Positions 1,058 through 54,872 of a stretch of 64,000 nt of DNA are shown one piece after another. Below the pieces are notes generated by a model. The model had not been told where the DNA came from. It ran no database searches and saw nothing but the letters and a program-made list of their open reading frames with translations. The translations under genes and the position numbers were made by a program. Origin of the DNA: Trypanosoma brucei (Eukaryota); NCBI GenBank assembly GCA_000002445.1, contig CM000208.1, positions 2,528,001 to 2,592,000 of the forward strand, written 5' to 3'. Within the stretch, counting starts at the first letter, position 1. Each line of letters opens with the position of its first letter.

Positions 1058-1534
<477 letters not shown>

Positions 1535-1965: not shown

Positions 1966-2442
<477 letters not shown>

Positions 2443-2873: not shown

Positions 2874-3350
<477 letters not shown>

Positions 3351-3776
3351 TCAACGCACAGGTAACACGAGGGCAGCGCACGCAAGTCAAAGGGGAGAGG
3401 AAGATTATGTGACCGCACAGCAACAGCAGCAGGCGCGGGTAACAGCTGACAGCGACTTCTTTGCCATGACACGCTGCCTTGCATAGCAGTACATAGCGCC
3501 TGCGGCCACACCGATACATACACACTGTGAAATGCGCTAGCGGTGCCAAAAGCGAATGCGAATGCCTTCGTGTCAGCGCGTGGACCACACGCACACACAC
3601 ACACACGAAAAGAACGAAGGCAGCGGCACATTCCGGCAAACAGTGAAATCTATCACCACCACAAGGAGAGGGTATGGTGGGGGGAAAATAAAAAAGGAAT
3701 ATCAATGCCTCACCTGAGGGGCACTGAGGGATCTAATGTCAAGGTGGCAAACCAAAGGTCTCCTGATGTAGGATGT

Positions 3777-4253
<477 letters not shown>

Positions 4254-4684
4254 TCAACGCACAGGTAACACGAGGGCAGCGCACGCAAGTCAAAGGGGAG
4301 AGGAAGATTATGTGACCGCACAGCAACAGCAGCAAGTGCGGGTAACAGCTGACAGCGACTTCTTTGCCATGACACGCTGCCTTGCATAGCAGTACATAGC
4401 GCCTGCGGCCACACCGATACATACACACTGTGAAATGCGCTAGCGGTGCCAAAAGCGAATGCGAATGCCTTCATGTCAGCGCGTGGACCACACGCACACA
4501 CACACACACGAAAAGAACGAAGGCAGCGGCACATTCTGGCAAACAGTGAAATCCATCACCACCACAAGGAGAGGGTATGGTGGGGGGAAAATAAAAAAGA
4601 AAAGGAATATCAATGCCTCACCTGAGGGGCACTGAGGGATCTAATGTCAAGGTGGCAAACCAAAGGTCTCCTGATGTAGGGTGT

Positions 4685-5161
<477 letters not shown>

Positions 5162-5587
5162 TCAACGCACAGGTAACACGAGGGCAGCGCACGCAAGTCA
5201 AAGGGGAGAGGAAGATTGTGTGACCGCACAGCAACAGCAGCAAGCGCGGGTAACAGCTGACAGCGACTTCTTTGCCATGACACGCTGCCTTGCATAGCAG
5301 TACATAGCGCCTGCGGCCACACCGATACATACACACTGTGAAATGCGCTAGCGGTGCCAAAAGCGAATGCGAATGCCTTCGTGTCAGCGCGTGGACCACA
5401 CGCACACACACACACACGAAAAGAACGAAGGCAGCGGCACATTCCGGCAAACAGTGAAATCCATCACCACCACAAGGAGAGGATATGGTGGGGGGAAAAT
5501 AAAAAAGGAATATCAATGCCTCACCTGAGGGGCACTGAGGGATCTAATGTCAAGGTGGCAAACCAAAGGTCTCCTGATGTAGGGTGT

Positions 5588-6064
<477 letters not shown>

Positions 6065-6495
6065 TCAACGCACAGGTAACACGAGGGCAGCGCACGCAAG
6101 TCAAAGGGGAGAGGAAGATTATGTGACCGCACAGCAACAGCAGCAGGCGCGGGTAACAGCTGACAGCGACTTCTTTGCCATGACACGCTGCCTTGCATAG
6201 CAGTACATAGCGCCTGCGGCCACACCGATACATACACACTGTGAAATGCGCTAGCGGTGCCAAAAGCGAATGCGAATGCCTTCGTGTCAGCGCGTGGACC
6301 ACACGCACACACACACACACGAAAAGAACGAAGGCAGCGGCACATTCCGGCAAACAGTGAAATCTATCACCACCACAAGGAGAGGGTATGGTGGGGGGAA
6401 AATAAAAAAGAAAAGGAATATCAATGCCTCACCTGAGGGGCACTGAGGGATCTAATGTCAAGGTGGCAAACCAAAGGTCTCCTGATGTAGGGTGT

Positions 6496-6972
<477 letters not shown>

Positions 6973-7403
6973 TCAACGCACAGGTAACACGAGGGCAGCG
7001 CACGCAAGTCAAAGGGGAGAGGAAGATTATGTGACCGCACAGCAACAGCAGCAGGGGCGGGTAACAGCTGACAGCGACTTCTTTGCCATGACACGCTGCC
7101 TTGCATAGCAGTACATAGCGCCTGCGGCCACACCGATACATACACACTGTGAAATGCGCTAGCGGTGCCAAAAGCGAATGCGAATGCCTTCGTGTCAGCG
7201 CGTGGACCACACGCACACACACACACACGAAAAGAACGAAGGCAGCGGCACATTCCGGCAAACAGTGAAATCTATCACCACCACAAGGAGAGGATATGGT
7301 GGGGGGAAAATAAAAAAGAAAAGGAATATCAATGCCTCACCTGAGGGGCACTGAGGGATCTAATGTCAAGGTGGCAAACCAAAGGTCTCCTGATGTAGGA
7401 TGT

Positions 7404-7880
<477 letters not shown>

Positions 7881-8305
7881 TCAACGCACAGGTAACACGA
7901 GGGCAGCGCACGCAAGTCAAAGGGGAGAGGAAGATTATGTGACCGCACAGCAACAGCAGCAGGCGCGGGTAACAGCTGACAGCGACTTCTTTGCCATGAC
8001 ACGCTGCCTTGCATAGCAGTACATAGCGCCTGCGGCCACACCGATACATACACACTGTGAAATGCGCTAGCGGTGCCAAAAGCGAATGCGAATGCCTTCG
8101 TGTCAGCGCGTGGACCACACGCACACACACACACACGAAAAGAACGAAGGCAGCGGCACATTCCGGCAAACAGTGAAATCTATCACCACCACAAGGAGAG
8201 GATATGGTGGGGGAAAATAAAAAAGGAATATCAATGCCTCACCTGAGGGGCACTGAGGGATCTAATGTCAAGGTGGCAAACCAAAGGTCTCCTGATGTAG
8301 GATGT

Positions 8306-8782
<477 letters not shown>

Positions 8783-9208
8783 TCAACGCACAGGTAACAC
8801 GAGGGCAGCGCACGCAAGTCAAAGGGGAGAGGAAGATTATGTGACCGCACAGCAACAGCAGCAAGCGCGGGTAACAGCTGACAGCGACTTCTTTGCCATG
8901 ACACGCTGCCTTGCATAGCAGTACATAGCGCCTGCGGCCACACCGATACATACACACTGTGAAATGCGCTAGCGGTGCCAAAAGCGAATGCGAATGCCTT
9001 CGTGTCAGCGCGTGGACCACACGCACACACACACACACGAAAAGAACGAAGGCAGCGGCACATTCCGGCAAACAGTGAAATCTATCACCACCACAAGGAG
9101 AGGGTATGGTGGGGGGAAAATAAAAAAGGAATATCAATGCCTCACCTGAGGGGCACTGAGGGATCTAATGTCAAGGTGGCAAACCAAAGGTCTCCTGATG
9201 TAGGGTGT

Positions 9209-9685
<477 letters not shown>

Positions 9686-10116
9686 TCAACGCACAGGTAA
9701 CACGAGGGCAGCGCACGCAAGTCAAAGGGGAGAGGAAGATTGTGTGACCGCACAGCAACAGCAGCAGGCGCGGGTAACAGCTGACAGCGACTTCTTTGCC
9801 ATGACACGCTGCCTTGCATAGCAGTACATAGCGCTTGCGGCCACACCGATACATACACACTGTGAAATGCGCTAGCGGTGCCAAAAGCGAATGCGAATGC
9901 CTTCGTGTCAGCGCGTGGACCACACGCACACACACACACACGAAAAGAACGAAGGCAGCGGCACATTCCGGCAAACAGTGAAATCCATCACCACCACAAG
10001 GAGAGGGTATGGTGGGGGGAAAATAAAAAAGAAAAGGAATATCAATGCCTCACCTGAGGGGCACTGAGGGATCTAATGTCAAGGTGGCAAACCAAAGGTC
10101 TCCTGATGTAGGGTGT

Positions 10117-10593
<477 letters not shown>

Positions 10594-11024
10594 TCAACGC
10601 ACAGGTAACACGAGGGCAGCGCACGCAAGTCAAAGGGGAGAGGAAGATTATGTGACCGCACAGCAACAGCAGCAAGCGCGGGTAACAGCTGACAGCGACT
10701 TCTTTGCCATGACACGCTGCCTTGCATAGCAGTACATAGCGCCTGCGGCCACACCGATACATACACACTGTGAAATGCGCTAGCGGTGCCAAAAGCGAAT
10801 GCGAATGCCTTCGTGTCAGCGCGTGGACCACACGCACACACACACACACGAAAAGAACGAAGGCAGCGGCACATTCCGGCAAACAGTGAAATCTATCACC
10901 ACCACAAGGAGAGGGTATGGTGGGGGGAAAATAAAAAAGAAAAGGAATATCAATGCCTCACCTGAGGGGCACTGAGGGATCTAATGTCAAGGTGGCAAAC
11001 CAAAGGTCTCCTGATGTAGGATGT

Positions 11025-11501
<477 letters not shown>

Positions 11502-11927
11502 TCAACGCACAGGTAACACGAGGGCAGCGCACGCAAGTCAAAGGGGAGAGGAAGATTATGTGACCGCACAGCAACAGCAGCAGGCGCGGGTAACAGCTGA
11601 CAGCGACTTCTTTGCCATGACACGCTGCCTTGCATAGCAGTACATAGCGCCTGCGGCCACACCGATACATACACACTGTGAAATGCGCTAGCGGTGCCAA
11701 AAGCGAATGCGAATGCCTTCGTGTCAGCGCGTGGACCACACGCACACACACACACACGAAAAGAACGAAGGCAGCGGCACATTCCGGCAAACAGTGAAAT
11801 CTATCACCACCACAAGGAGAGGGTATGGTGGGGGGAAAATAAAAAAGGAATATCAATGCCTCACCTGAGGGGCACTGAGGGATCTAATGTCAAGGTGGCA
11901 AACCAAAGGTCTCCTGATGTAGGGTGT

Positions 11928-12404
<477 letters not shown>

Positions 12405-12835
12405 TCAACGCACAGGTAACACGAGGGCAGCGCACGCAAGTCAAAGGGGAGAGGAAGATTATGTGACCGCACAGCAACAGCAGCAAGCGCGGGTAACAGC
12501 TGACAGCGACTTCTTTGCCATGACACGCTGCCTTGCATAGCAGTACATAGCGCCTGCGGCCACACCGATACATACACACTGTGAAATGCGCTAGCGGTGC
12601 CAAAAGCGAATGCGAATGCCTTCGTGTCAGCGCGTGGACCACACGCACACACACACACACGAAAAGAACGAAGGCAGCGGCACATTCCGGCAAACAGTGA
12701 AATCTATCACCACCACAAGGAGAGGGTATGGTGGGGGGAAAATAAAAAAGAAAAGGAATATCAATGCCTCACCTGAGGGGCACTGAGGGATCTAATGTCA
12801 AGGTGGCAAACCAAAGGTCTCCTGATGTAGGATGT

Positions 12836-40891: not shown

Positions 40892-41263
40892 AAGCTTGCA
40901 ACACCTCACTGAATGGTAGGCACAGTCACACACGGGAAGCGCAGAAATAGATCGGGAAAGGGGAGCAGCAGGAGGCAAAGAACAAACACAAAAATGAAAG
41001 AAACAGCCAAAAAGGGATGAGGAAAGGAAATGGCGTGAAAACACAAATCCACACAGGCGGTAAACATAATCATCACAACATTTGAAATGTAAAAAAAAGT
41101 ATTGGTAGTTGTACAGTTTCATCCAACTTGCTTTGTATATTGCCGCGCCGTATTCACATAAAAACTTTTCTTTCCTTGCAATAGTTAATCAATGGCTGTT
41201 GTGCACTGAATTTGGAACGTGAAAAGAAATTTTACAACCCCTATAAACTACACCTCCCCCTCC

Positions 41264-44200
41264 CTAGTACAGAACGTCACCATCGCCGTCCTCACTAGCA
41301 TTGTCCTCCACGTCAAGCTCATCGAAATCATCGTCATCGTCGTCGTAATCGTCATCATCATCCTCGTCATCATCCTCGTCATCGTTGTCCCCGCTAGCAC
41401 TCGATTCACAGTCTTCGCCAACATCTCCAGCCACAACCTGGTCGTCATCGTCGTCATCGTCGTCGTCATCGTCGTCATTGGACGATTCATCATCACTGAT
41501 TACTCCGTGAAGCGTTGAACCGCTGACTGCCGGCGGAGCATCACCTAACCGCGGTTGCAGACTAAGTGTACGAAGCACCTCCGCCCGAAGCTCAGCCAGC
41601 GACACGTTGAACGAACAGGACTTTTCACGATTCATGCCCTTCTGATCTGTACGTCGCTCCTTCCGCGTCGCAAGAGCGTACGAACCTCCAAAATTTGCAA
41701 TTATATGTGTCTGAATACCATCGGATGAGCCAGCTGTTGCAAGAATAAGCCATGCTCGCTCAACTAGAGCCCTGTAGCCCGAGGAGCTGTCACTGAAGTT
41801 TGTCGAGAGAAGTCCAACACCACGGGCAAGCCGAGCCCCCATGTTCTCGAAATGACGAGTGCCGTAGGAAACTTCCCTCAGGGTAGTTCCACTAACGCCC
41901 TCAAACGCATTGGCCTTCGATTGCTGTCGCTGGTCGTGGTAATCCCCAGGTTTCATCAATCCTCGCATGTTACAACCGGGTAAGCCCTCAATGGCATCGT
42001 CCAACCCTCCCATCATCGTTGCCTCCAGAGTGTAGCTCATGCGTATCCCAAACTGGCGATACATCACTACCCTCCCTGTGTGTCGTTTACTCTTCTGCAC
42101 CGCGAAAGAGCACTGCGGCAGGGAGAAAGCTGCGGAAAGCTGACTCAGCAAAATGGGTAGCAACTTCTCAGGGGTGACTGAATCTGCAGCCGGAGACGCA
42201 GTGGAATTTAGAGACTGCTTGCGATTATTGGACGAAGGGATCGAATAAGCCGACCCCACAGTACCAGGGATTGACGCAGGCAATTTCACAGCGGGCCTCT
42301 TCTTAGACGTTGCGACCGAGCGCATGCAACCGTACATCAAGAAATTTTTTGAACGCGAGTGACCATGAAGATCCACAAATAGTGGTACGCGGCGCTGCTC
42401 CTTCTCAATAATGTGCCGCGCAATTTGCTTCAACGAATACACTACTGGGTTGGTCGCTGGATTTGGATTCGCGTAGTCACGGTTAAGGTCGGCACCGCCA
42501 ATTGAGCAGCGGTGATTTCCCAGAACGACACCATCAGGATTCAGCATGGGGATAACCTTCCACACATATCGGTTACGAAGGGCATGAGAATTATCTCGAT
42601 TAGACAACAGGAAAGACATAAGACCGCGAAGGACCCAACTGGAGTTGCTCTCCCCTGGATGAACACGGGCTGTAACAAGTAGAACAGGACGTTCCTTTAT
42701 GGGTCTGAACTCCTCTGGATCCATATTGCTCGAACCGAGCTTCCTCTCCCTCGGCGTTTCCGCCACCTCTGTGTGAATAGCACTACTGTCGTCCTCAACG
42801 CCAACATTGCCACGGATGTCACTTGCTGTCAGCGTCAAAATGGGCACGGGAAGTCCACCAGGAGTGCAACACAGCTCCTGCACCGCAAACAGAAGGGAAG
42901 GACCAAACACCGCGCTTGCTTGAAGCTTCCACCGCTCAACGTCGGACAGTAGGTTCGAGTAGGTGTACGGGTAACAGTTTGCGATAAACACGCATCCCTT
43001 CCTCTCAGGAAACTGGATACTGAAACTGAGCGTATAGCAATGTGACGGTTCCTCCTTCCGTTGTGACGAGCGTTTCTTGTTCGTTGCCTTCTTTTTCTTT
43101 GGTCTATCAGAGCTCTGCTGTTTATTACTATTCTTTGGTCCCTCGCCCTCCTCCACCGACGGTGCAGGGGAGTTGTCGACAGCAGGAGTCGTGGTGGAGC
43201 GGGCCGGCCGCTGATAACTGTTCCTGTAGTAAAAGATGTCGTGCCCGCAGTGCTTCCATTGTGGAGCTTGCGATGCCGCCCCCATAGAACCTGATGACTC
43301 AAAGAACAACATAAGGGGTTGTTGCCCTTCATTGAAAGTTGAACTGGATTTCTCCATGTTGAGAATGTTAAAATGGTACGTCGCCCCAGGTGCGTAATCC
43401 TCCACACTGAAGCAGAACCACTGAACATGACAATTTGTATTAGTATCTGGGCTTAACACAAGATCGTACTCCATGTCATCGACAGCGATCGCGCGCTGCA
43501 GGTTACCGCTCTCAAAATTGGACCTAAACTTTAAAACGCCTTTGAAATCCCCGGACGGAAGCGGCGGAGGGAACCTCAGCGAACTCTCTAACCTCTTCGC
43601 CTCCCTGTCACACATATTAAATACATCCTGCGGTTGTGACGCCACGGTCAACGGTGGCCTCTCGTAGACAACACAATCAGAAAATCGCGGACACATGCTC
43701 AAACGCCCTATTAGTCGTTTCATCACTCGTACTCGCGTCTCCAAAGATGGCTGAAGAAGCAGCTTCGGCTGTTCATCGAGGGAAAGGGAGTAATCGCTGC
43801 TCAACACGGGGTGATCCGCTGCCGGACGATCCGATGAGACAAATTCTTGACATAATGGTATGCCTTCGTCAAAAAAATCCCAGGGCAACCCATTTGGGGC
43901 GGTAAATGTAGACGGAATATGTGCTGCTCCAGCCATCGCCGAAGCATTTGCAGGCGGGAGCAGAGACATATATCCCCTGGCACACCTGTCAACGCGCAAC
44001 TCTGGAGAAAAGAAACTAGGTTCCGCGTCCACCAGAGGGGGCGCGTGCACTTCGGTCGCAACCTTCGCGCCCGGAGGGAGATGAATATGCGACAGGGAAT
44101 CCTCCTGTTCCCCCCGTGCCTTCCGCTGATGCTGAGGGAGCAAAGGCAGGGTAGGAACAACACGCACTGTGGAAGAGACTTGCTCAACACATTGCAGCAC

Positions 44201-45976
44201 ACTTAACTCGCCAGGAAGAGTAACGATGCCAAAAAGTTTGTAAAATGCCAAGAACAGCTTGTGCCAATGTGTTGCGGGGTGCTTCATGGCCTCAGAAGCG
44301 GCCACAGCCCCAGACACAAGCGAAGAGAGAGCCCCTGACTCATCATGCAACTGTTCATTGCAGCCAGCATCCATTTCAGTCACAACATGCAAAACGTCAA
44401 GAGCCGAAAGCATAAGATCTCCATTTTCTGCATGTAGTGTGCTGAACGCAATTAGAAGATCGACAACGCGCTGTTGCCGAGCCACCTCTAGTCCCCGTTT
44501 GCTGCGCTTCATATTGCAACAAAGTCTAGAAAGCAGCTCTACTGACCATAAGCCAAGTGCTTCTATGCACCTGTCAAGGGGAGTGTGAACCGTACGTTGC
44601 GAGGCAGGGGATTGAACGAGATGACTTTGCACCATTCTCCCAACCTGAATGGAAAGTGTAACGCCTTGCAAACACATGGATTCGGCAATCGAAGAACACG
44701 CTGACAATTGATAAAATGCAACAAACATATGCAACAGAGCATCGGAAATATTCTTGACGCACCCGACTGCGGCCATGCGCTGGTGGTAATTAACGCTAGG
44801 GAGGGAAGTGACACTATGAGAAGCGATAGAATCCTCGCCGGAGATATCCATGTTTGTCAACATCTTCTGAATTGTTGCAAAGAGTTGCCTTGACGCGCGC
44901 AAAAGTAGAGACAGAAGCCTTAAACGCCGCACCGCGCTAAGCACCTTTCCACTCACCGTCCCACATAACCCCATCAGTAGCGCCACCGCCTCATATACGC
45001 GCACGGGCCCCAGCGAACGCAAGGGTATGGTATGAAACACTAAATTTTGCACCTCCTGCCCTCCAGACTCGCTGTCACAGTAATCATCATCAGCCAAGTT
45101 ACGCGAATCCTTACGTGGATTGTCCCAGCGGACCTTGAGTGCGTCCGTGAATGCGGGATCGTACACCTTAAGAATAGAGTCGCACAACCTGGGAAGCTGC
45201 AGCCGAGCACACAAACGCACAACGCGTTTGCGGCGCCGCGAAGGCAGCGAACGAAGCAAATTGAAAACCAAAGTTAATGCACTACATGCGGCGTTCTCGT
45301 CTGAAAGGACCAGTTCAGAGTCCAACACATCCATCAAGATGCGCCATGAAGAGTTCTTCTTGTTGCACAATGCTTGCCAACCATTCTTCACAACTCGGGG
45401 TCGCCCGTTTGAATGCAGTGCGCCCCCGGAAAAGAACCACTGATGCAACTCATATATGTGACTGTAGAGACTAAGTCCAGCCGTCACAGACAGACTACCA
45501 AATCCACCACCAAAACTGGACGCGGCGACGTTCCCACTCTCACTTAGCAATTTTCCACTAAAGGAGGTGCACGCAACACGCATCTGGCGTAAATACATAC
45601 TGACTACCGAGTTTCCCCTGCTAGAAACCGACCGAACAGCTGCGGCAACGGAGCGCCCGTTGTCGAGGCCCGCAGCAGTAATTTGCCCGGGAGAATACAT
45701 CATCTTGACAGGCGCTATCCACAACACGGGTGGAAAAGGGTCCCGAAGAGTTGGTTGTTGCCCAACATCTCCATTACTTTTGGCGACGTGTTTCGTAGAG
45801 TGCTTCGACATCGCCGCCTTACTTCCTCCCCTCACCGGGGACCGCCTCGAGCACGAGGTCGCCATGGTGCCGTTGGCTTTGCAGGGTTCGAGAAGTGCAC
45901 CTGTTGACGAGCGGCCTCTTCCGCAGCCTTCTCCGCATTTGACTTCCTTCTTCTCGCGCTTGCAAACCCTTGCCAT
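41264..45976 (-). CDS. cytosolic carboxypeptidase (M14 family, Nna1/CCP1-like; tubulin deglutamylase-type) with poly-acidic C-terminal tail
   Basis: FESGNL N-domain motif. Zn-carboxypeptidase blocks ARVHPGESNSSWVLRGLMSFL, MLNPDGVVLGNHRCSIGGADLNRDY and FVDLHGHS. Long N-terminal region as in Nna1. First ATG at 'cat' 45974-45976; the track start at 46000 is GTG, so the true start is uncertain. Confidence 0.85.
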   Translation of the reverse strand: MARVCKREKKEVKCGEGCGRGRSSTGALLEPCKANGTMATSCSRRSPVRGGSKAAMSKHSTKHVAKSNGDVGQQPTLRDPFPPVLWIAPVKMMYSPGQITAAGLDNGRSVAAAVRSVSSRGNSVVSMYLRQMRVACTSFSGKLLSESGNVAASSFGGGFGSLSVTAGLSLYSHIYELHQWFFSGGALHSNGRPRVVKNGWQALCNKKNSSWRILMDVLDSELVLSDENAACSALTLVFNLLRSLPSRRRKRVVRLCARLQLPRLCDSILKVYDPAFTDALKVRWDNPRKDSRNLADDDYCDSESGGQEVQNLVFHTIPLRSLGPVRVYEAVALLMGLCGTVSGKVLSAVRRLRLLSLLLRASRQLFATIQKMLTNMDISGEDSIASHSVTSLPSVNYHQRMAAVGCVKNISDALLHMFVAFYQLSACSSIAESMCLQGVTLSIQVGRMVQSHLVQSPASQRTVHTPLDRCIEALGLWSVELLSRLCCNMKRSKRGLEVARQQRVVDLLIAFSTLHAENGDLMLSALDVLHVVTEMDAGCNEQLHDESGALSSLVSGAVAASEAMKHPATHWHKLFLAFYKLFGIVTLPGELSVLQCVEQVSSTVRVVPTLPLLPQHQRKARGEQEDSLSHIHLPPGAKVATEVHAPPLVDAEPSFFSPELRVDRCARGYMSLLPPANASAMAGAAHIPSTFTAPNGLPWDFFDEGIPLCQEFVSSDRPAADHPVLSSDYSLSLDEQPKLLLQPSLETRVRVMKRLIGRLSMCPRFSDCVVYERPPLTVASQPQDVFNMCDREAKRLESSLRFPPPLPSGDFKGVLKFRSNFESGNLQRAIAVDDMEYDLVLSPDTNTNCHVQWFCFSVEDYAPGATYHFNILNMEKSSSTFNEGQQPLMLFFESSGSMGAASQAPQWKHCGHDIFYYRNSYQRPARSTTTPAVDNSPAPSVEEGEGPKNSNKQQSSDRPKKKKATNKKRSSQRKEEPSHCYTLSFSIQFPERKGCVFIANCYPYTYSNLLSDVERWKLQASAVFGPSLLFAVQELCCTPGGLPVPILTLTASDIRGNVGVEDDSSAIHTEVAETPRERKLGSSNMDPEEFRPIKERPVLLVTARVHPGESNSSWVLRGLMSFLLSNRDNSHALRNRYVWKVIPMLNPDGVVLGNHRCSIGGADLNRDYANPNPATNPVVYSLKQIARHIIEKEQRRVPLFVDLHGHSRSKNFLMYGCMRSVATSKKRPAVKLPASIPGTVGSAYSIPSSNNRKQSLNSTASPAADSVTPEKLLPILLSQLSAAFSLPQCSFAVQKSKRHTGRVVMYRQFGIRMSYTLEATMMGGLDDAIEGLPGCNMRGLMKPGDYHDQRQQSKANAFEGVSGTTLREVSYGTRHFENMGARLARGVGLLSTNFSDSSSGYRALVERAWLILATAGSSDGIQTHIIANFGGSYALATRKERRTDQKGMNREKSCSFNVSLAELRAEVLRTLSLQPRLGDAPPAVSGSTLHGVISDDESSNDDDDDDDDDDDDQVVAGDVGEDCESSASGDNDDEDDDEDDDDDYDDDDDDFDELDVEDNASEDGDGDVLY
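41300..41495. repeat. imperfect (GAY)n codon repeat encoding the poly-Asp/Glu tail
   Basis: Plus strand atcgtcatcgtcgtcgtaatcgtcatcatcatcctcgtcatc... The antisense reading gives the spurious poly-Ile/Val ORF at 41219..41518. Confidence 0.9.
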
Positions 45977-47725
45977 TACGAGAGCAATTTTTGCTAACAC
46001 GTGGAATATGTAAGTTCGCTTTCCCTTTGCCCGTTAGTTACTCTATAAGTTCTCTAAAGGCCGGAAAACGGGGATTACCTCCCCTCTACGTCCCTCAACT
46101 GCGGTCGTACAAGGGGTTAAGCGACCACTCACCGCTAGCGAAGGTGAAGGCATGTCAAAGAAAAAAGTTTCAACGGCAATCATGAGGGAAGTTGGGAGAG
46201 GAGTGCGGCATCAGACAGCAGATTGAAAAGTGAAGGTGCGTACACCTCGCAACGGTTTAAATACCATGAAAAGGGCAACGCACCAGTGATAGCGGCTTAC
46301 AAATCCTGGGCACGGCACCAAAGTTCTCGAAAACAATAAAAAGTGATACGAGACATGATTGTCTTCACCAGTGATTAACTGCTGTGCAGAAGAGACCCCA
46401 TATTCCACTTTAAGAACGACAAATTGTGGTGCGGGTTGCTGCATCTAAAAAGAATAATGGCGGCAGAATGTTCCCACAACCCGGCACAACTCTATTGACA
46501 CAAGCAAACTCACAACATCAAAACAACAGAGTGCAGCCAAATCAGAAGGAACTGCTTACAAAAAAGATTGTACCCATATCAACATTGTGCGAATCACTCG
46601 AGTAGTCCACACGGATATGAGGGAAGAGGGGAAAAGTCGCAGAGCACACAAATGGCGACCCATCCGCGGCCTCACTTCCTGAACAACCGTGTTGTACGCC
46701 TTTTCTGGGAAAGAATGTTGAGGTCACAGGCAACTGGAGAAGTCGGCTGCACATACCCGTGTTTGTGCTTAGAAATATTACCACATGTGTCTGCCTCACG
46801 TTGCATGTAACCAAACACAAGCAGACATATACATATCACTCACGTTAAGTAACGGATTGCAGTCCTCTCTCTTCTTCCCCACTGAGCAGCCAACCACAAA
46901 AAACAACCCCAACAAGCGGTTTTTTGGTTTCCCTCTCCAGCAATGCCCGCTGGTGCTCTCCCGCCTCAATGGCAGCAGGTTACATACGATAAACTTAAGG
47001 CGATGGCTTCAGACTACAGCATGAAACGCCTCAGATACGCATCCAACAGGATAATAGAGTTCGTCTGAAGGACTACAGGGCAAAGGGAAGACAAGGCAGA
47101 AGCGGCAATGATGTTGTACTAAGGCGCGCGTCACGTAAAAGAGAAGAGTGATGATAAATGTGAGAGATGTACAAGGAATATATAAGAAATGAGTGTTGTA
47201 AGCATCCTTCTCGAGCATTGACAAGGAACCAACCCCCAGTGCTTGCCCTCCGCTATTGTAAACAAGGGAGCTACCGTGGGAAAAAGAAGGACACCTCGAT
47301 AAAATAAACAAAACGAATAAAGAGCAGGAGCACTTTTCGCTCTCGTGGAAAGAGAGTCGGCCAACCAACCCACGCATAAAACCCTCCTTCCTGTGGTAAA
47401 GGAGAAAGGGAACGAGGCGAGGCGAGGAAGTGTAAACAAACAAGAGAAAAAAAAATAGTATGCGAGAGGGAGAGAAAACAAAAAAATATATTTTATATAA
47501 ATAAAACTAGCAAAAGAGGGAAATAAAAACAATCCTCGTCAAGTAAATTAAGAACGACACGGCGTTAAACCAAAAAGTAAAGAAACAGTAACGACGTACA
47601 AGAAATGCTGTAGTCGAAAGGAGAGAGAGGATGATAAAATAAATAAGGATGGGCGTAAGAATCGACACGAATGCATTAATACAAACAGTCAAATAACCAT
47701 CTGGCAAACGAGTTGATGGTTGCAT

Positions 47726-49582
47726 TCAGTGCACTGTGTTAACGTACGGTGCGCGGGGAAGATGGCACGAAGAGATGGCACCGGTATTTCTCAGTTCATG
47801 CTCATCAGGGTGTAATTGGGGTCTTGGGCGGGACCTTGACTGACTCTCAAGGAACCTGCGCAGCAGCATTAACAGGGTCACTGAAGGAAGGACGTACACC
47901 AGCGGTTGCCACCAGCATCGATGCCTCAGAAAACACAAAAGATTGAACCAACTGCACTGTTGGCACTGCGACTCCCCCTTTGCCTCCTCACTGTACCGTC
48001 CATTTTCAAAGGTGCTGCCACCTTGAGAGCCATTGCTTGGTTTGAGCGCTTTAACACCGAACGAAATAGCGCGGGTGTCCACAACGTCGCCCCTGGCGTT
48101 TCTCAGCGTTGCATTGCATTTGGCCTCTCCCTCAATACTGTCCTGTACGATCAGAGTGAAACGTCGCTGCGCTGATCCTTGTAGGGGTATGTACACAGTT
48201 TGGGCAACCATCGGCTGAACATTAACCGTACACTCGCCGACAACAACCGTGTACTGTGCCTCGATGTCCCCAGTGTTAAGAACCGTCACGGTAATGGTGC
48301 TTCCCCGCGAATAGGAATGCACCACCTTCCCTGAAACGGTTGCACCAACAATCACACCCGAGGACACAGACAACACAAAGTTTAACTTATCAGCGGATAT
48401 TGTTATCGTCACCATCGTTGATAATGTTCCTGTCACCTGGTAAGCCACAGCTGGGGCACTGGCATTGGCCAGTGGGTCAAAACCAAAAGGAGCGAAAAAG
48501 CGAGCCATATATTTCCCTTGTTGCCCCTTAGTCTCCGCTTCCAAGTCCCGATCACGATAATCCTCCAGTTGATTCGCCAAGCAAGCGCCCGGATACGCGT
48601 CACACCGGCTCCCCTGAGTGGCGAAACCCTCATATGACACGCCCACTTTATTACATTCGGTGCCACGAATAGAAACAAGGTGGGTGTCAACAATAATCCA
48701 TTCGTTATACCCAGCACCCACTCGCTCATGACCCCGCGGTTCAGAGGGGATAAACAACATCTTTCCCGATAGGTCAAGAGGCATTTCTGGGGGTGCGAAG
48801 TCTCCTATAAGACGTGCAGACGCGCCGAACTCTGTCGACGTGGCGGTCAACTTATCCGGCCCCAAAGACATCGTGAACTCCTTTGAGCCCGTGGAGCCTC
48901 CCCCAGTGCTGTTGTTCCCACTTGACAATTTCACCTGCAATTCATACCATACAACACCTCGACCAATGGTATAGCCACCGTACCAGAGGTCACTGAAACG
49001 AAGGCATGATGCCATTCCAGTATCCCCCGTCACGCTGCAAGTTCCAACGCTGCGGCTAGTTGGGTTGCAAATTCCTGACAATGCACAAGCGCCACATAAG
49101 CAGCAAAAACCTTGACTGTACGGAATCACATCTCCTCTCCGATCACGCGCCACGCCGCATGTCGCGGATCCAGGGTTGGAAGAATCGTCGCACCAACTGC
49201 TTGCACTTGTTCTGAGACGCTGCTCATATGGTTTGGCATTGAAGTTTCTTATGTAATAAATAGGATAGCGGTACTGCACCGGTGATTTTGTCGTCACTAG
49301 GCGGATTGGTTCAAACTCGACACGCTTTCCCTTTTCGTCACCCGTTTTGTCAACTGCCTCGCGGAGAAGAACAACCTCTTCAGCCTCAATTGTTTGCTCG
49401 CTGCCCACGGAGAGCCCCACAACCATCTTCTTTTCACATGGAAACGGTTCCCCATTACTACTGCGCTCGCAGTACTCGATGGACGACGAGGCCACAAATG
49501 CCGCCTCAGTGCAGGGGAAAAGGCCGCTTGTCGTCACAAGGACGACGAGCACAAAAACAGATGATAACGTCTCCGTCGGCAT
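47726..49582 (-). CDS. HAP2: HAP2/GCS1-like gamete fusion protein (signal peptide, Cys-rich ectodomain, C-terminal TM plus basic tail)
   Basis: ATG verified. N-terminal signal peptide MPTETLSSVFVLVVLVTTSGLFPCTEA. YSQGFCCLCGACALSGICNP matches my recollection of the HAP2-GCS1 signature region. C-terminal hydrophobic segment then RHRCWW...RRFLESQSRSRPRPQLHPDEHELR. Confidence 0.6.
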   Translation of the reverse strand: MPTETLSSVFVLVVLVTTSGLFPCTEAAFVASSSIEYCERSSNGEPFPCEKKMVVGLSVGSEQTIEAEEVVLLREAVDKTGDEKGKRVEFEPIRLVTTKSPVQYRYPIYYIRNFNAKPYEQRLRTSASSWCDDSSNPGSATCGVARDRRGDVIPYSQGFCCLCGACALSGICNPTSRSVGTCSVTGDTGMASCLRFSDLWYGGYTIGRGVVWYELQVKLSSGNNSTGGGSTGSKEFTMSLGPDKLTATSTEFGASARLIGDFAPPEMPLDLSGKMLFIPSEPRGHERVGAGYNEWIIVDTHLVSIRGTECNKVGVSYEGFATQGSRCDAYPGACLANQLEDYRDRDLEAETKGQQGKYMARFFAPFGFDPLANASAPAVAYQVTGTLSTMVTITISADKLNFVLSVSSGVIVGATVSGKVVHSYSRGSTITVTVLNTGDIEAQYTVVVGECTVNVQPMVAQTVYIPLQGSAQRRFTLIVQDSIEGEAKCNATLRNARGDVVDTRAISFGVKALKPSNGSQGGSTFENGRYSEEAKGESQCQQCSWFNLLCFLRHRCWWQPLVYVLPSVTLLMLLRRFLESQSRSRPRPQLHPDEHELRNTGAISSCHLPRAPYVNTVH

Positions 49583-50220
49583 GTTCAGCTTCTCTCGGGA
49601 TTTACACCCAAAGCAAGTACCGCGCCAGCAAACTGTGAGCCTTTATGTGTTAGCCTTATTATGTCTAAATACTAAAAACAACAAGTAGCACGTGGATGCG
49701 TGTGTAAACAATGAAAAGATCAGTGTGATTCAGTATTTGAGCATGTGACAACGACAGAGCAACGGAGCTGTGGAAATACTGCCAGGAAAGTTGAATCAGA
49801 ACCGGCCAACGAAGCTCCAAACAATCAAGGATTCTAATGAATTAAAGATGCAATAAATTAACTGTTGGTGTGAATCTGGCAATGAGGCGCTACAAAATAG
49901 CAAAAAGGAAGGCAGAAAAAAGAAAGGGAGATAATGTGCAATCAACTTACTTTATAACAACTTCTACTCCGTGCTGTACGGTTCGCAGCGGTGCAAAAAA
50001 TCGAAGATATTCTGGTGCTTTGAGCACACAGGCGGAGTTAATGTGAGGATAAGCAGTAAGCTGGCGATGGTCACTTCATTCTGCATCCATCGACCACACC
50101 TCCACCATGGGAATACGCGTTGTTTCCTCTCCTCTTCGTAAAAGTATACAATGACGTTGTAGTTTCCGATATTGCAAAGCTTTCCCACTCCATAACAAAT
50201 CTTACGGCCAACTTTTGCGA

Positions 50221-50865
50221 TCACTTTTCCCGCGGAACCTCCTCCACAATCACCTCCGCCTCCGGTATGTTTTCCCTCACTGATGCTTCTTTTCTCGCAT
50301 CCTCCTCGAACTCCACCTCTATCGCACCCTCAGTGTTGTAGTCACCAACAGTTTCCTTAGGCAACACGGGATCATCATCCTCCAATTGCTTCTCAACAAA
50401 GTCCTTTGAAAGCTTCCCTGTGCTCGGATCAAACATTAACTTGGCGCCCCTGGCAACCTTCTTTCCCTTTTCATTCTCTCCGACACCAAATGCCATCATT
50501 CCCATTTGCGGCATCCCATCCCCACGCTGAATGCTTTCCATCATCGCTTTCATGGACTCACGCACCTCCGGTGTGAGAGATTGGTTTAACTTCTGGTGCA
50601 TGTCCTGAAGCATGGCAGGGTCCATGGTGGGGCTCCCCCCTACGAAGCGGCCATCGAAGAAATCTGAGGGAGACGACGAAGATCCATTAAATGAACCTTT
50701 CTTCGCCTGCGTAAGGATCTTTGCAAGGGCATCCGCGTCAGTGGGGTAACCACCGGGCCCACCACTGAAGCCACAGCCTCCGCTGCCACATTGCCGCAAC
50801 CAAAAAGTCGATCGTAACAGAGATGATGATGTGCTCGAGAGCCGCAACCGCAACGAATTGCGCAT
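50221..50865 (-). CDS. hypothetical protein (214 aa), Arg/Ser-rich N-terminus (possible mitochondrial presequence), Met-rich central segment, acidic C-terminus
   Basis: ATG verified. MRNSLRLRLSSTSSSLLRSTFWL. The MPQMGMMAFG segment resembles STI1-like Met-rich motifs. Confidence 0.5.
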   Translation of the reverse strand: MRNSLRLRLSSTSSSLLRSTFWLRQCGSGGCGFSGGPGGYPTDADALAKILTQAKKGSFNGSSSSPSDFFDGRFVGGSPTMDPAMLQDMHQKLNQSLTPEVRESMKAMMESIQRGDGMPQMGMMAFGVGENEKGKKVARGAKLMFDPSTGKLSKDFVEKQLEDDDPVLPKETVGDYNTEGAIEVEFEEDARKEASVRENIPEAEVIVEEVPREK

Positions 50866-51196
50866 AGCGCTTCCTTTACTATGACTCTCAGAGGCTCACG
50901 TGGGGAGATAAGCAACACAAAGAATCAGAGGTGAGAAAAGGTGAGGGAACGAGCTTTGCGCATCCAATGACAAGGAAAAAAATCAAAAACTAGAAACACC
51001 TGTTCATTCACCGTCGCAGAGGCGCAAATAAGCGGGTATATACGTCGACAACTATAACCAAACGGCAGCTCCACAGCCCAATGCACAGCACTACCACGCA
51101 GGCGCCTCGGCCTAAATGATTGTCCTCCCCTCACACATCCACGGCCGCGGTGTGATACGGTGTACTGTCTCGTGTCAATGTTAGGGCCAACACAAG

Positions 51197-51227
<31 letters not shown>

Positions 51228-51247
51228 ACACAAACAAACAAACAAAC
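51197..51247. repeat. compound microsatellite (CA)13 TA (CA)n (CAAA)4
   Basis: Seen directly. It underlies the spurious track ORF 50925..51395 (CVYVCVCVCVCAC). Confidence 0.95.
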
Positions 51248-51508
51248 AGTTACCCTCTGCAATCTCCACGGGCCACTGCGCGCACCTCTCCCGCTGAGAG
51301 GGGTGGGTCAAAAAATAAAACAACAATTCACCCACGAACGATAAATCCGCCATACCGACACATGGCCTGGCACACCTCATCACCCTCGCCTGCAAGAGGG
51401 GACAGAATGAAACATAAAAGGCAAAAGTCTAGCTTCCTGCATCCCTCTGCACGCGAATCAAAGGATCTCCCAAACTATCTCCACCGTGTGCTAAGTGCTA
51501 AACGCCCA

Positions 51509-52864: not shown

Positions 52865-54872
52865 CATACTACGTGTCTTCCGCGTCCTTTCCTCTGGGTG
52901 AAGGTAATAATAATGGCGATGTGGAAACGATGCGTGCCCTGCACGCCAGGGGACTGCGTCCGACAATACCTAAGCTAACTTTACCAGACGGTACCTAAAG
53001 GTATACAGGCAACAAAAAAAAAAGGAGATTGAGATATAGCGACACCCTTTATCACATGGAAATGTGTGTACGCGTGCACACTATTGCAGCACCTGCTTCC
53101 ACATTCATGCCCTTTCCGGCATCATGCCACCCCTCCTCTCACAGATTCTGTGCCAGCCGTCCGACGTTCCAAATACGTATGCAAAAAACACAGCCAAAAA
53201 TTACACCAGAGCAGTAACCGCTCCCATAAAAGAGCGAAGTCAAGTAACGACATAAAACAACGTGGATCAAAATAACCGATGAAAAGAAATCGACCCACTT
53301 AGTGTGCCCCTCTGCGCACATCTTCGGGAGTTGACCGTCCAGCATTTAGTCAGCGGTGAGCGAGTGTCAAAAAACTCGATGGAAAATTTGCTGGTCACAA
53401 AACAAGGTGGGTGCCAGGCATCAGCTGGGAAAGCATAGAGACCATCACCACTTCACAGTGTGCAGAGAGAAAAATACTTCCACGCACTTCGAATATTTCT
53501 CTTGAGACTAGCGATCAGTCCAGACAAAGCATCGGCAGGAAGCAAAAAACACTCAGCGAAACAGCGACAGAAGTAACGTTCAACCATGGCAACCAAATGT
53601 AACATCTTAATAGGATTTGAATAACTTCCAAACACCAGGACCTAACACAAGCACCAAACCTGAGGTGACGCCAACGGAGCCTGCACAAAAAAGGTGTTTA
53701 TACCACCACAATCGATCTAGTGAGGGTCGCGCAGATAACTTTGACGCTAGAAGATGATGCAAAGTACATTCTCCTTCTCCCCCGCGGCAAAGTCTACCGC
53801 GGACACAAAGCACCCTACCAGTAATGGATAACGAAGCCAACGCCTAAACCCCTCAGTTCGTTTGCAATGACGATAAACGCAAGGTGATGGCGTTCTCTGC
53901 CGCCAACTAACCACAAACCGTTACGCTTAAGGGGGTGGGCGCACACATACACACACCTCAGCCAGTGAGGTAAACGGGAAATCACTACGTGACACAACGC
54001 CAATGAGAGAAAGGGGAATAAGCCCTGAGGTACAGCTCGCCACTCGCGGTGCACTCGAGGGCGCTGACTCAACACCACACAATCTTTGAAACCGCCTCCT
54101 CCTAGACTACAGGAAAGACACCGCGCATACCGGTGGTACCAGCGCATAAATGTCCCCATATCACCAGCCACATAGTGACACGACTTTAAGGCTTGCTGAA
54201 AAATGCACCTAGCCAGCCTGACTGGGTGCTGTAATGAAAGTAACTAGGTAGCAATCTTTGCTGGAAATGAAATAGCACGCTCCTAGCAGACAGATGGAGA
54301 AAGCAAACAACATTATCCACAACATCGCAACCTTTCAACTTCCGCTCCGGCTCAGAAAAATGGTACCCTACATGCTTCGACATCAAAGGGCGAAACGATA
54401 TTCTGTGCGTGCAAACAATCGCTCGTAATCAAAATACAGGGGAAAAATCCACAGGGTCGGTCATCCGCAAATCCACAGAATGGCATTCAGCAAGTTTTTC
54501 AGCAAACGAGTTAGGTGTCCCTCTTGCGACCATTACTCCGAGCGACTCACCAACAATCTCGTGCAAACGAACTGTGGTCACTTACCTATTGGAGTGCAGA
54601 ACAAACCCAGCAAGCAAACCCATTTCCCCAACCATAGAAATTTCATAGTGCCGCATCGACGTTAAACACTGACGGAGTTGGCACTGGTTAGATGTGGAAT
54701 GTGCCCCGACTGTATTGTGTTAGTGGCTAACTGCAATTCGATGGATAATGGATTGACTTGTGGAACGGCAGCAGCATACCCCGGAGACGGCCAAGTGAAG
54801 CCCGCAACCCCACCACTGCAACAGATATGTGCGACCAAACATTTCCCCCATGCAGACTTGGTCAGCCATACA

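What the first reader, a model, noticed from the sequence alone, without database searches (positions are those of the whole stretch)
45977..49582. HAP2/GCS1-like gamete fusogen followed by a 1.75-kb ORF-free 3' flank
A HAP2-like gene implies sexual-cycle machinery. Its downstream region, on its own strand, is the longest intergenic or UTR stretch in the gene-dense part of the window. It ends in an A/T-rich purine block (47100-47700 plus strand) that would serve as the polyY tract for HAP2's 3'-end processing. The long flank is a candidate for stage-specific, salivary-gland or meiotic post-transcriptional control.
Basis: partly seen in the sequence, partly recalled or inferred. Interest (0 to 1): 0.5.

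Follow-up and report, generated by a model that had tools for sequence, protein, structure and literature searches.

The report
Trypanosome HAP2 gene and long 3' UTR
This is the already-studied gamete-fusion gene HAP2 of Trypanosoma brucei followed by its unusually long, U-rich 3' untranslated region, which published data already tie to repression by the RNA-binding protein RBP10, so the finding is real but mostly known.

Summary
The 618-aa ORF at 47726-49582 (minus strand) is HAP2/GCS1. It matches PF10699 at E=4.7e-119 and is identical to T. b. brucei TREU927 Tb927.10.10770, whose protein appears only in tsetse salivary-gland meiotic cells and gametes.

The 1,749-nt flank is real, with three corrections:
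- It is the second-longest of 19 gene intervals, not the longest.
- It is not strictly ORF-free. It holds a 122-aa ORF that is annotated in strain DAL972 but shows no coding signature.
- The pyrimidine-rich block lies directly after the stop codon, not at the far end.

The flank is best read as about 1.45 kb of HAP2 3' UTR plus the splice signals and 5' UTR of the next gene, a carboxypeptidase. Published supplements list the UTR as "~1600?" with two UA(U)6 motifs. They also show RBP10 binding (5.5-fold enrichment) and HAP2 mRNA with almost no ribosome footprints in cultured forms.

New here:
- A UA(U)6 motif lies within 350 nt of the HAP2 stop in 5 of 5 Trypanosoma species, against 9 of 42 neighbouring genes.
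- The interval held two further genes ancestrally, both absent in T. brucei.

Noticed in passing: HAP2 carries mosaic, very divergent allele blocks (dS up to 0.59) shared among T. brucei-group strains.

The parts
47726..49582 (-). HAP2/GCS1 coding sequence, 618 aa (Tb927.10.10770)
   Evidence: ORF list. Pfam PF10699 E=4.7e-119. Exact match to XP_823296.1 of T. b. brucei TREU927. E=2.9e-174 to the T. cruzi HAP2 chain in PDB entry 5OW4.
49493..49573 (-). N-terminal hydrophobic, signal-peptide-like segment (aa 4-30)
   Evidence: Kyte-Doolittle scan: the only strongly hydrophobic N-terminal stretch.
47915..49441 (-). HAP2-GCS1 domain (aa 48-556), the class II fusogen ectodomain
   Evidence: Pfam envelope. 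Alignment to HAP2 chains 5OW4, 7S0K, 5OW3 and 5MF1.
47852..47914 (-). Hydrophobic stretch (aa ~557-577) that aligns to the C-terminal hydrophobic stretch of T. cruzi HAP2 (its presumed membrane anchor)
   Evidence: phmmer alignment to 5OW4 extends through WWQPLVYVL.... Its hydropathy is weaker than that of the N-terminal segment.
45977..47725 (-). 1,749-nt flank between the HAP2 stop and the carboxypeptidase ATG. Inferred content: ~1.45-kb HAP2 3' UTR, then processing signals, then ~158-nt carboxypeptidase 5' UTR
   Evidence: Length. Clayton-lab manual UTR estimate '~1600?'. No Rfam match above chance, no tRNA, no meaningful tandem repeat, no copy elsewhere in the window.
47026..47725 (-). Stop-proximal pyrimidine/U-rich block (59-78% Y per 100 nt; core 47398-47525 is 80% Y)
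   Evidence: Predicted to be almost unstructured, with MFE -3.6 to -17.5 kcal/mol per 120 nt over 47725-47406.
47481..47488 (-). UA(U)6 (RBP10-type) motif 1, 238 nt after the stop
   Evidence: The motif count of 2 matches PMC5568443 S2 Table.
47450..47457 (-). UA(U)6 (RBP10-type) motif 2, 269 nt after the stop
47391..47478 (-). Internal polypyrimidine tract (47478-47398) followed by an AG (47392-47391). Candidate alternative or cryptic trans-splice acceptor
   Evidence: Sequence read. Whether it is used in vivo was not tested.
47009..47377 (-). 122-aa ATG ORF, probably a spurious gene model. Called in DAL972; the numbering gap implies it is Tb927.10.10760
   Evidence: Called gene at L001 12202-12570. 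No Pfam match. All 3 nucleotide differences from gambiense are non-synonymous. Codon score 0.058 bits/codon, below all 20 real genes at 0.10-0.40. The exact TREU927 sequence is not in the protein collection.
46258..46313 (-). Predicted zone of the main HAP2 poly(A) site (inference only)
   Evidence: Splice acceptor at 46135 plus the 123-178 nt interquartile distance from PMC2936537.
46135..46203 (-). Polypyrimidine tracts (46203-46194 and 46167-46157) and the first downstream AG (46136-46135). Predicted trans-splice signal of the carboxypeptidase gene, and so the determinant of HAP2 polyadenylation
   Evidence: It gives a 158-nt 5' UTR (197 nt with the 39-nt spliced leader), against a published median of 130 nt that includes the leader.
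41264..45976 (-). Downstream gene: cytosolic M14 zinc carboxypeptidase, 1,570 aa (Tb927.10.10750)
   Evidence: Pfam Peptidase_M14 plus Pepdidase_M14_N. CDS of 4,713 nt listed under Tb927.10.10750 in PMC4845500 Table S5.
49250..50100 (-). Hyper-divergent allelic block 1 (HAP2 aa ~1-111 plus ~500 nt upstream)
   Evidence: 42 mismatches in 250 nt against DAL972 at 49250-49499. dS=0.59 and dN/dS=0.17 for aa 28-111. Both states are present in T. equiperdum.
48000..48750 (-). Hyper-divergent allelic block 2 (HAP2 aa ~346-530, mostly domain III by alignment)
   Evidence: 38 mismatches in 750 nt. dS=0.195. Both states are present in T. equiperdum overlaps.

Best explanation
The ORF is the T. brucei gamete fusogen HAP2/GCS1 (Tb927.10.10770), a type I membrane protein of the class II fusogen family.

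The 1.75-kb flank is mostly the HAP2 3' UTR, about 1.45-1.6 kb or roughly four times the species median. It ends just upstream of the polypyrimidine tract and AG (46203-46135) that direct trans-splicing of the next gene, the carboxypeptidase. Because the two reactions are coupled, that signal also sets HAP2 polyadenylation.

The pyrimidine/U-rich block immediately after the stop codon is not the 3'-end processing signal. It is an unstructured, single-stranded landing pad for RNA-binding proteins. It carries two UA(U)6 motifs through which RBP10, and probably other U-rich binders, keep HAP2 mRNA low and untranslated outside the sexual stages. Protein therefore appears only in salivary-gland meiotic cells and gametes.

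In evolutionary terms, the interval is what remains after two ancestral neighbouring genes were lost.

Shown: gene identity; flank anatomy; motif presence and its recurrence across species; gene loss.
Taken from the literature: RBP10 binding; low ribosome occupancy; stage-specific protein.
Inferred: the poly(A) site position, and that the block itself mediates the control.
For: Identity:
- Pfam match E=4.7e-119.
- Exact match to XP_823296.1.
- Match to PDB entry 5OW4, E=2.9e-174.

UTR length:
- A tract plus AG at 46203-46135 gives the carboxypeptidase gene a 158-nt 5' UTR.
- The median distance from poly(A) site to splice site is 142 nt (PMC2936537). That places the HAP2 poly(A) site near 46277 and gives a UTR of about 1,450 nt.
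- An independent manual estimate is '~1600?' (PMC5568443).

Control:
- RBP10 pull-down enrichment is 5.30-fold and 5.76-fold.
- RBP10 RNAi raises HAP2 mRNA by log2 0.73 (total) and 0.94 (polysomal).
- Ectopic RBP10 lowers it by log2 0.45-0.53.
- Ribosome footprints are 1-16 reads against 178-1,808 poly(A)+ reads.
- mRNA is 7-fold higher in salivary glands than in proventriculus.
- The protein is seen only in sexual stages, using constructs that keep the endogenous UTRs.

Motifs and structure:
- Two UA(U)6 motifs lie at +238 and +269.
- At least one motif lies within 350 nt of the HAP2 stop in T. brucei, T. vivax, T. grayi, T. theileri and T. cruzi. Among neighbouring genes the figure is 9 of 42. 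The hand-calculated hypergeometric probability is about 0.001.
- The block is predicted to be unstructured.

Gene loss:
- T. grayi and T. theileri have HAP2, a Metallophos gene, an ~850-aa membrane protein gene, then the carboxypeptidase. T. vivax keeps the membrane protein gene. T. cruzi keeps a frameshifted Metallophos relic (E=3e-72).
- The family has no T. brucei member in an exhaustive HMMER search.
Against: - No poly(A) or spliced-leader site was seen directly. The published estimate carries a question mark, and Hutchinson et al. state that HAP2 has no annotated 3' UTR.
- A strong internal tract plus AG (47478-47391) sits just before an ATG and could split the flank into two transcripts.
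- RBP10 is a bloodstream-form protein, so it cannot explain repression in procyclic or midgut forms. Other factors must act there.
- RBP10 effects on HAP2 mRNA are modest, under 2-fold.
- The UA(U)6 recurrence rests on five species and a short motif in T-rich sequence.
- No one has shown that the flank alone confers stage specificity.
Confidence: 0.7

Rival explanations
1. Two-transcript model. The internal polypyrimidine tract (47478-47398) and AG (47392) are an active trans-splice acceptor. HAP2 mRNA is then polyadenylated about 140 nt upstream, giving a 3' UTR of about 190 nt that lacks both UA(U)6 motifs. The remaining ~1.1 kb is a separate spliced-leader-capped RNA, either Tb927.10.10760 as a non-coding RNA or a long alternative 5' UTR of the carboxypeptidase. 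This could be the main state or a stage-regulated isoform.
For: - The ~80-nt tract is among the strongest in the window (the 100-nt window 47391-47490 is 82% Y) and is followed within 5 nt by an AG. An ATG follows 13 nt after that.
- The DAL972 annotation calls a gene there.
- Kolev et al. found 1,114 novel transcripts in T. brucei, many non-coding, and frequent alternative processing sites.
- Extending the HAP2 annotation at its 3' end recovered more 3'-end single-cell reads.
Against: - The RNA-seq-based manual estimate of the UTR is ~1600 nt, and it counts both motifs as inside the UTR.
- RBP10 binds the mRNA in vivo, which fits the motifs being present in it.
- The 122-aa ORF has no coding signature.
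Confidence: 0.2
2. The flank contains a real small protein-coding gene, the 122-aa ORF at 47377-47009, so the region is not a UTR at all.
For: It is annotated in T. b. gambiense DAL972. The ID gap between Tb927.10.10750 and Tb927.10.10770 implies a model in TREU927. The tract, AG and ATG are favourably arranged.
Against: - No Pfam family matches it.
- All 3 substitutions relative to gambiense change the amino acid.
- Its codon score of 0.058 is below that of all 20 real genes in the window.
- Its Cys/Phe/Leu/Ser-rich composition is what translating a pyrimidine tract gives.
- The flank has no nucleotide match (blastn) to the HAP2 3' flanks of T. vivax, T. grayi, T. theileri or T. cruzi beyond low-complexity hits. 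The ORF's protein sequence was not searched against them.
- The exact protein is absent from the 15-billion-protein collection.
Confidence: 0.05
3. The flank is only an evolutionary scar. It is neutral sequence left when the Metallophos and membrane-protein genes were deleted, with no regulatory role beyond carrying generic processing signals. HAP2 stage control resides elsewhere, in the 5' UTR, the CDS or protein turnover.
For: - Ancestral synteny shows that two genes once occupied this interval.
- Divergence from gambiense in the flank is about 1%, like neutral intergenic DNA.
- There is no alignable conservation with other species.
- There is no structural signal (mean z = -0.29).
Against: - No relic of either lost gene is detectable (E>0.3), although the same search finds the T. 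cruzi relic at E=3e-72.
- The most extreme strand bias in the 64 kb lies here.
- RBP10 binding and the conserved UA(U)6 placement argue for function.
Confidence: 0.12

Closest known systems
Trypanosoma brucei HAP2/GCS1, Tb927.10.10770 (Peacock et al. 2021, PMC8113336; Howick et al. 2022, PMC8939820; Hutchinson et al. 2021, PMC8509897)
   Same: Identical protein sequence (XP_823296.1). Same chromosomal neighbourhood: H2B array, RIF5-SNase-domain gene, M14 carboxypeptidase, DHHC gene.
   Different: Nothing. This is that gene. The published work did not define the 3' UTR or dissect it.
T. cruzi HAP2 ectodomain, PDB 5OW4 (Fedry et al. 2018, PMC6089408), and HAP2 from Chlamydomonas and Arabidopsis (5MF1, 5OW3)
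   Same: Class II fusogen family. Alignment over aa 26-575 at E=2.9e-174, about 47-51% identity to American trypanosome orthologues.
   Different: Fusion activity has not been demonstrated for the T. brucei protein. Its C-terminal hydrophobic anchor is shorter and interrupted by a proline.
RBP10-regulated mRNAs with UA(U)6 motifs in the 3' UTR (Mugo & Clayton 2017, PMC5568443)
   Same: Two UA(U)6 motifs. The mRNA is enriched 5.3-5.8-fold with RBP10, rises on RBP10 RNAi and falls on ectopic RBP10.
   Different: The typical targets named in that paper's abstract are procyclic-specific mRNAs. HAP2 protein is confined to sexual stages, so further regulators are needed. Other meiosis mRNAs (MND1, SPO11, DMC1) are in the same bound set.
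Coupled trans-splicing/polyadenylation signals of kinetoplastids (Kolev et al. 2010, PMC2936537)
   Same: The distal tract plus AG at 46203-46135 fits the rules for tract length, AG position and 5' UTR length.
   Different: It abuts the stop codon, which is the wrong place to set the end of a 1.5-kb UTR.

Membership tests
HAP2/GCS1 gamete fusogens (Pfam PF10699) | Full-length match to the HAP2-GCS1 profile above the gathering score | tested here: met
   398.7 bits against a cutoff of 27.4, E=4.7e-119, profile positions 3-514 of 515.
HAP2/GCS1 gamete fusogens (Pfam PF10699) | Sequence homology to HAP2 proteins with solved class II fusogen structures | tested here: met
   5OW4 E=2.9e-174; 7S0K 3.7e-55; 5OW3 1.1e-44; 5MF1 4.5e-43. 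No structure prediction was run.
HAP2/GCS1 gamete fusogens (Pfam PF10699) | Type I topology: N-terminal signal sequence, Cys-rich ectodomain, single C-terminal membrane anchor | tested here: met
   Hydrophobic aa 4-30; 22 cysteines; a hydrophobic stretch at aa ~557-577 that aligns to the C-terminal hydrophobic stretch of T. cruzi HAP2. The anchor's hydropathy is modest.
HAP2/GCS1 gamete fusogens (Pfam PF10699) | Expression restricted to gametes or sexual stages | not testable with these tools
   Literature only. HAP2::YFP is seen only in salivary-gland meiotic intermediates and gametes in four strains (PMC8113336). mRNA is 7-fold higher in salivary glands than in proventriculus.
HAP2/GCS1 gamete fusogens (Pfam PF10699) | Required for membrane fusion of gametes | not testable with these tools
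   No T. brucei knockout was found in the papers read here. The abstract of PMC10630298 describes HAP2 as required for successful mating in Leishmania.
RBP10 target 3' UTRs | UA(U)6 motif within the 3' UTR | tested here: met
   Two motifs at 47488-47481 and 47457-47450 on the gene strand. They count as inside the UTR only under the long-UTR model.
RBP10 target 3' UTRs | Physical association with RBP10 and response to its level | not testable with these tools
   Literature: enrichment ratios 5.30 and 5.76; RNAi log2 +0.73 and +0.94; ectopic expression log2 -0.45 and -0.53.
   AGs follow the tracts at 47609, 47508 and 47392. Their use would give a UTR of 190 nt or less, against the published '~1600?'. 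No splice-site or poly(A) reads were available.
Protein-coding gene (122-aa ORF, putative Tb927.10.10760) | Coding signature: family match, purifying selection, codon usage, orthologues | tested here: not met
   No Pfam match. 3 of 3 substitutions are non-synonymous. Lowest codon score in the window. The flank has no nucleotide similarity to other species' HAP2 3' flanks.

The most novel reading that the evidence does not exclude
HAP2 in the T. brucei group is kept as two ancient allele classes, which may be a gamete-compatibility polymorphism.

What was observed:
- Against T. b. gambiense DAL972, divergence is about 0.5% in the flanking 9 kb but 6% across HAP2 and its upstream region. It peaks at 17% over aa 28-111.
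- That block has dS=0.59 with dN/dS=0.17, so both alleles are under purifying selection.
- The divergence is mosaic: aa 112-345, which include the fusion loops, are identical in protein between the two alleles.
- The T. equiperdum assembly breaks inside HAP2 into overlapping pieces. In each overlap one copy carries the 927 state and the other the gambiense state, so both classes occur in one genome.
- Each allele has substitutions at sites that are invariant in six other Trypanosoma species.

A related second possibility is that the internal splice signal yields a stage-specific short-UTR HAP2 isoform that escapes the UA(U)6 motifs.
Probability: 0.12. Interest if true: 0.7.

Novelty: already known. 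Interest (0 to 1): 0.22.

Why it matters
HAP2 marks the sexual stage of a parasite whose genetic exchange spreads virulence and drug-resistance traits. How its protein is confined to a few cells in the tsetse salivary gland is not worked out.

This analysis gives a concrete map for that experiment:
- a UTR of about 1.45 kb;
- a 700-nt unstructured U-rich block with two UA(U)6 motifs whose placement recurs in five Trypanosoma species;
- a candidate internal processing site;
- the true processing signal at 46203-46135.

None of this changes what the gene is, and the main points already sit in published supplements.

The by-product may be worth more. If population data confirm ancient, recombining allele classes at a gamete fusogen, T. 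brucei would have a first molecular candidate for its still-unexplained mating compatibility.

Tried and rejected
1. Exact-protein look-up of the window's HAP2 in the contig index found nothing. T. congolense HAP2 was also not on record, so the closest outgroup locus could not be examined.
2. An Rfam scan of 45000-50500 gave only one chance-level hit, mir-619 at E=0.75. There were no tRNAs, no meaningful tandem repeat and no repeat of the flank elsewhere in the window.
3. I looked for relics of the lost Metallophos and membrane-protein genes in the T. brucei flank with tblastn and six-frame hmmsearch. Nothing scored below E=0.3, while the T. cruzi positive control scored 3e-72. 'Recognisable pseudogene' is therefore rejected.
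4. Two word-indexed homologue searches with the T. vivax membrane protein, alone and as a 3-sequence profile, returned only the query. The exhaustive HMMER search was needed instead.
5. I searched supplements for mapped splice and poly(A) sites. Kolev 2010 had no hit for these gene IDs in the stored, truncated files. Siegel 2010 and the DRBD18 paper had no stored supplements. The GTF of Naguleswaran 2021 was cut before chromosome 10.
6. blastn of the flank against the HAP2 3' flanks of five other species gave only low-complexity T-rich matches, so no covariation test of RNA structure was possible.
7. A sliding-window fold z-score scan gave mean z=-0.29. The single z=-3.0 window (46285-46166), one of 41, was not pursued.
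8. The idea that the gambiense HAP2 allele is decaying in an asexual lineage was rejected. dN/dS is 0.11-0.20, and gambiense-type segments also occur in T. equiperdum. All T. equiperdum HAP2 pieces are free of stop codons.


Full report
**Source and gene identity.** The window is chromosome 10 of Trypanosoma brucei brucei TREU927. The 618-aa product of 47726-49582 (minus strand) is exactly XP_823296.1/EAN78468.1, which the literature calls HAP2/GCS1, Tb927.10.10770. Surrounding DNA is 98.3-99.1% identical to T. b. gambiense DAL972 chromosome 10. All genes I mapped in the window lie on the minus strand, as expected for one polycistronic unit.

**HAP2 test.** The score is 398.7 bits against a cutoff of 27.4, E=4.7e-119, covering profile positions 3-514 of 515. 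The protein aligns over residues 26-575 to the T. cruzi HAP2 chain in PDB 5OW4 (E=2.9e-174), and to the Arabidopsis, Chlamydomonas and other HAP2 structures. It has an N-terminal hydrophobic segment and 22 cysteines. A C-terminal hydrophobic stretch aligns to the corresponding hydrophobic stretch of T. cruzi HAP2. Orthologues occur across trypanosomatids and in Naegleria.

**Flank geometry.** The flank is 1,749 nt from the HAP2 stop to the ATG of the next gene. That gene is a 1,570-aa M14 cytosolic carboxypeptidase, identified as Tb927.10.10750 by its 4,713-nt CDS.
- The interval is the second-longest of 19 in the single-copy part of the window. The interval between the adenosine-deaminase-domain gene and the DHHC gene is 2,005 nt.
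- It is not strictly ORF-free. Several mechanical ORFs of at least 60 aa lie on the gene strand. A 122-aa ATG ORF (47377-47009) is a called gene in DAL972, and the gap in gene IDs between 10750 and 10770 implies a TREU927 model, Tb927.10.10760.
  - This ORF has no Pfam match.
  - All three substitutions relative to gambiense are non-synonymous.
  - Its codon score of 0.058 bits/codon is below all 20 real genes, which score 0.10-0.40.
  - I regard it as a spurious translation of pyrimidine-rich DNA.
- The purine-rich (+ strand) block is real and is the most strand-biased 300-nt and 600-nt stretch of the 64 kb. On the HAP2 strand, however, it starts at the stop codon and occupies the first ~700 nt of the flank.

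**Where the 3' end is probably made.**
- In T. brucei the poly(A) site of a gene is set by the downstream trans-splice signal and lies a median 142 nt upstream of it (interquartile range 123-178).
- Polypyrimidine tracts have a median length of 18 nt. Median UTRs are 388 nt (3') and 130 nt (5') (PMC2936537).
- The signal that fits the carboxypeptidase gene is the pair of tracts at 46203-46194 and 46167-46157 with the first AG at 46136-46135. This gives a 158-nt 5' UTR.
- By inference the main HAP2 poly(A) site is near 46260-46310, and the 3' UTR is about 1.45 kb.
- Independently, the Clayton laboratory's manually curated entry for this gene gives a 3' UTR of '~1600?' nt with two motifs (PMC5568443 S2 Table).
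- Hutchinson et al. note that HAP2 has no annotated 3' UTR. They suggest that their 3'-extended transcript annotation likely captured more HAP2 transcripts. Naguleswaran et al. report that their improved annotation detected HAP2 more often.
- I cannot exclude that the strong internal tract (47478-47398) plus AG (47392), which sits 13 nt before the ATG of the 122-aa ORF, is used as an alternative site. That would create a ~190-nt UTR lacking both motifs.

**Evidence for post-transcriptional control (mostly published).**
- HAP2::YFP integrated with the endogenous 5' and 3' UTRs is seen only in salivary-gland meiotic intermediates and gametes, in four strains (PMC8113336).
- mRNA counts are 859 in midgut, 492 in proventriculus and 3,486 in salivary glands (PMC8483307).
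- In cultured procyclic and bloodstream forms the ORF has 178-1,808 poly(A)+ RNA reads but only 1-16 ribosome footprints (PMC4845500 Table S4). The mRNA therefore exists but is barely translated.
- HAP2 mRNA is enriched 5.30-fold and 5.76-fold with RBP10. It rises on RBP10 RNAi by log2 0.73 in total RNA and 0.94 in polysomes. It falls on ectopic RBP10 expression by log2 0.45-0.53 (PMC5568443).
- MND1, SPO11 and DMC1 mRNAs are in the same RBP10-bound set.
- The two UA(U)6 motifs lie at 47488-47481 and 47457-47450, which is 238 and 269 nt after the stop. They sit inside a stretch predicted to be nearly unstructured.

**New comparative evidence.** I fetched the HAP2 loci of T. vivax, T. grayi, T. 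theileri, T. cruzi and Leishmania infantum. The 3' flanks do not align beyond T-rich low-complexity matches. Even so, each of the five Trypanosoma species has at least one UA(U)6 motif within 350 nt of the HAP2 stop. For neighbouring genes in the same loci the figure is 9 of 42. A hypergeometric calculation by hand gives C(14,5)/C(47,5), about 0.001. This is modest support for a conserved U-rich control element. L. infantum has none.

**Origin of the interval.** The gene order differs among species:
- T. grayi and T. theileri: HAP2, a Metallophos phosphoesterase gene, an ~850-aa membrane protein gene, then the carboxypeptidase.
- T. vivax: HAP2, the membrane protein gene, then the carboxypeptidase.
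- T. cruzi: a 2,345-nt gap holding a frameshifted Metallophos relic (hmmsearch E=3e-72).
- T. brucei: only the 1,749-nt flank, with no detectable relic (E>0.3).

An exhaustive HMMER search of 1.84 billion representative proteins found the membrane-protein family in T. vivax, T. melophagium, T. conorhini, T. grayi, Angomonas, Leishmania, Porcisia and Leptomonas. It found none in T. brucei or T. congolense. The T. brucei interval is therefore the shortest of those examined, and it is what remains after two genes were lost.

**Unexpected by-product: divergent HAP2 alleles.**
- TREU927 and DAL972 differ by about 0.5% across the flanking ~9 kb, but by 134 mismatches in 2,250 nt across HAP2 and its upstream region. 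There are 42 mismatches in 250 nt at 49250-49499.
- By block: aa 28-111 has dS=0.59, dN=0.099. Aa 346-530 has dS=0.195. Aa 112-345, which by alignment to T. cruzi hold the fusion loops (PMC6089408), has dS=0.037 and dN=0. Aa 531-618 is identical.
- In the first block the two alleles are 83% identical in protein, against 63-68% to T. congolense. Derived states fall on both alleles, including at sites invariant in six other species.
- The T. equiperdum OVI assembly is broken by 10-N gaps inside HAP2 into overlapping pieces. In each overlap one copy has the 927 state and the other the gambiense state at the diagnostic sites.
- All pieces keep an open reading frame.
- This looks like an old, recombining, two-class polymorphism shared across the T. 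brucei group. I found no mention of it in the HAP2 papers I read. Its cause is open: balancing selection, introgression or something else.

**Verdict.** The gene call is right and already known. The long flank is real and is best explained as a long regulatory 3' UTR, whose RBP10 connection is already in published supplements. Interest in the finding as stated is low. The allele dimorphism deserves its own follow-up.

Noticed in passing
window 48000-48750 and 49250-50100 (HAP2 CDS and upstream); L001 10001-11857; L007 3654-6874: HAP2 carries mosaic hyper-divergent allele blocks between TREU927 and T. b. gambiense: up to 17% nucleotide divergence, dS 0.59, dN/dS 0.17, against about 0.5% in flanking DNA. 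The T. equiperdum OVI assembly is fragmented inside HAP2, and its overlapping pieces carry both allele states. This suggests an old shared polymorphism at the gamete fusogen.
   Followed up: partly
L002 8886-11282; L003 12431-17003; L004 12988-17609; L005 11768-14112: Ancestrally two genes lay between HAP2 and the carboxypeptidase: a Metallophos phosphoesterase and an ~800-850-aa membrane protein conserved across trypanosomatids. T. brucei lacks both. T. vivax lacks the first. T. cruzi keeps a frameshifted, uncalled Metallophos relic (E=3e-72).
   Followed up: yes
window 1058-12685: A tandem array of at least 13 histone H2B genes (112 aa, minus strand, period ~908 nt). The 182-aa ORFs listed mechanically in each unit are spurious overlapping frames with no Pfam match.
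   Followed up: partly
window 40934-41033: One of the strongest 100-nt pyrimidine tracts in the window (83% Y on the gene strand) lies inside the annotated 5' end of the 644-aa ORF (ATG at 41122), only 141 nt after the carboxypeptidase stop. The true splice acceptor and start codon of that gene may lie further downstream.
   Followed up: no
window 52868-54872: This is the longest gene interval in the single-copy part of the window (2,005 nt). The DAL972 annotation places a 114-aa gene in it. It was not assessed for coding potential.
   Followed up: no
window 51000-51249: A (TG/CA)n-type microsatellite between the DHHC gene and the 214-aa gene shows a 42-nt length difference from T. b. gambiense.
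   Followed up: no
PMC5568443 S2 Table, sheet 1: The meiosis mRNAs MND1, SPO11 and DMC1 are, like HAP2, among the RBP10-bound mRNAs in bloodstream forms. This hints that RBP10 helps silence the sexual programme as a group.
   Followed up: no
window 46166-46285: This is the only window in the flank with a notably low folding z-score (-3.0, 1 of 41 windows). It coincides with the predicted HAP2 poly(A) and carboxypeptidase splice-signal zone.
   Followed up: no
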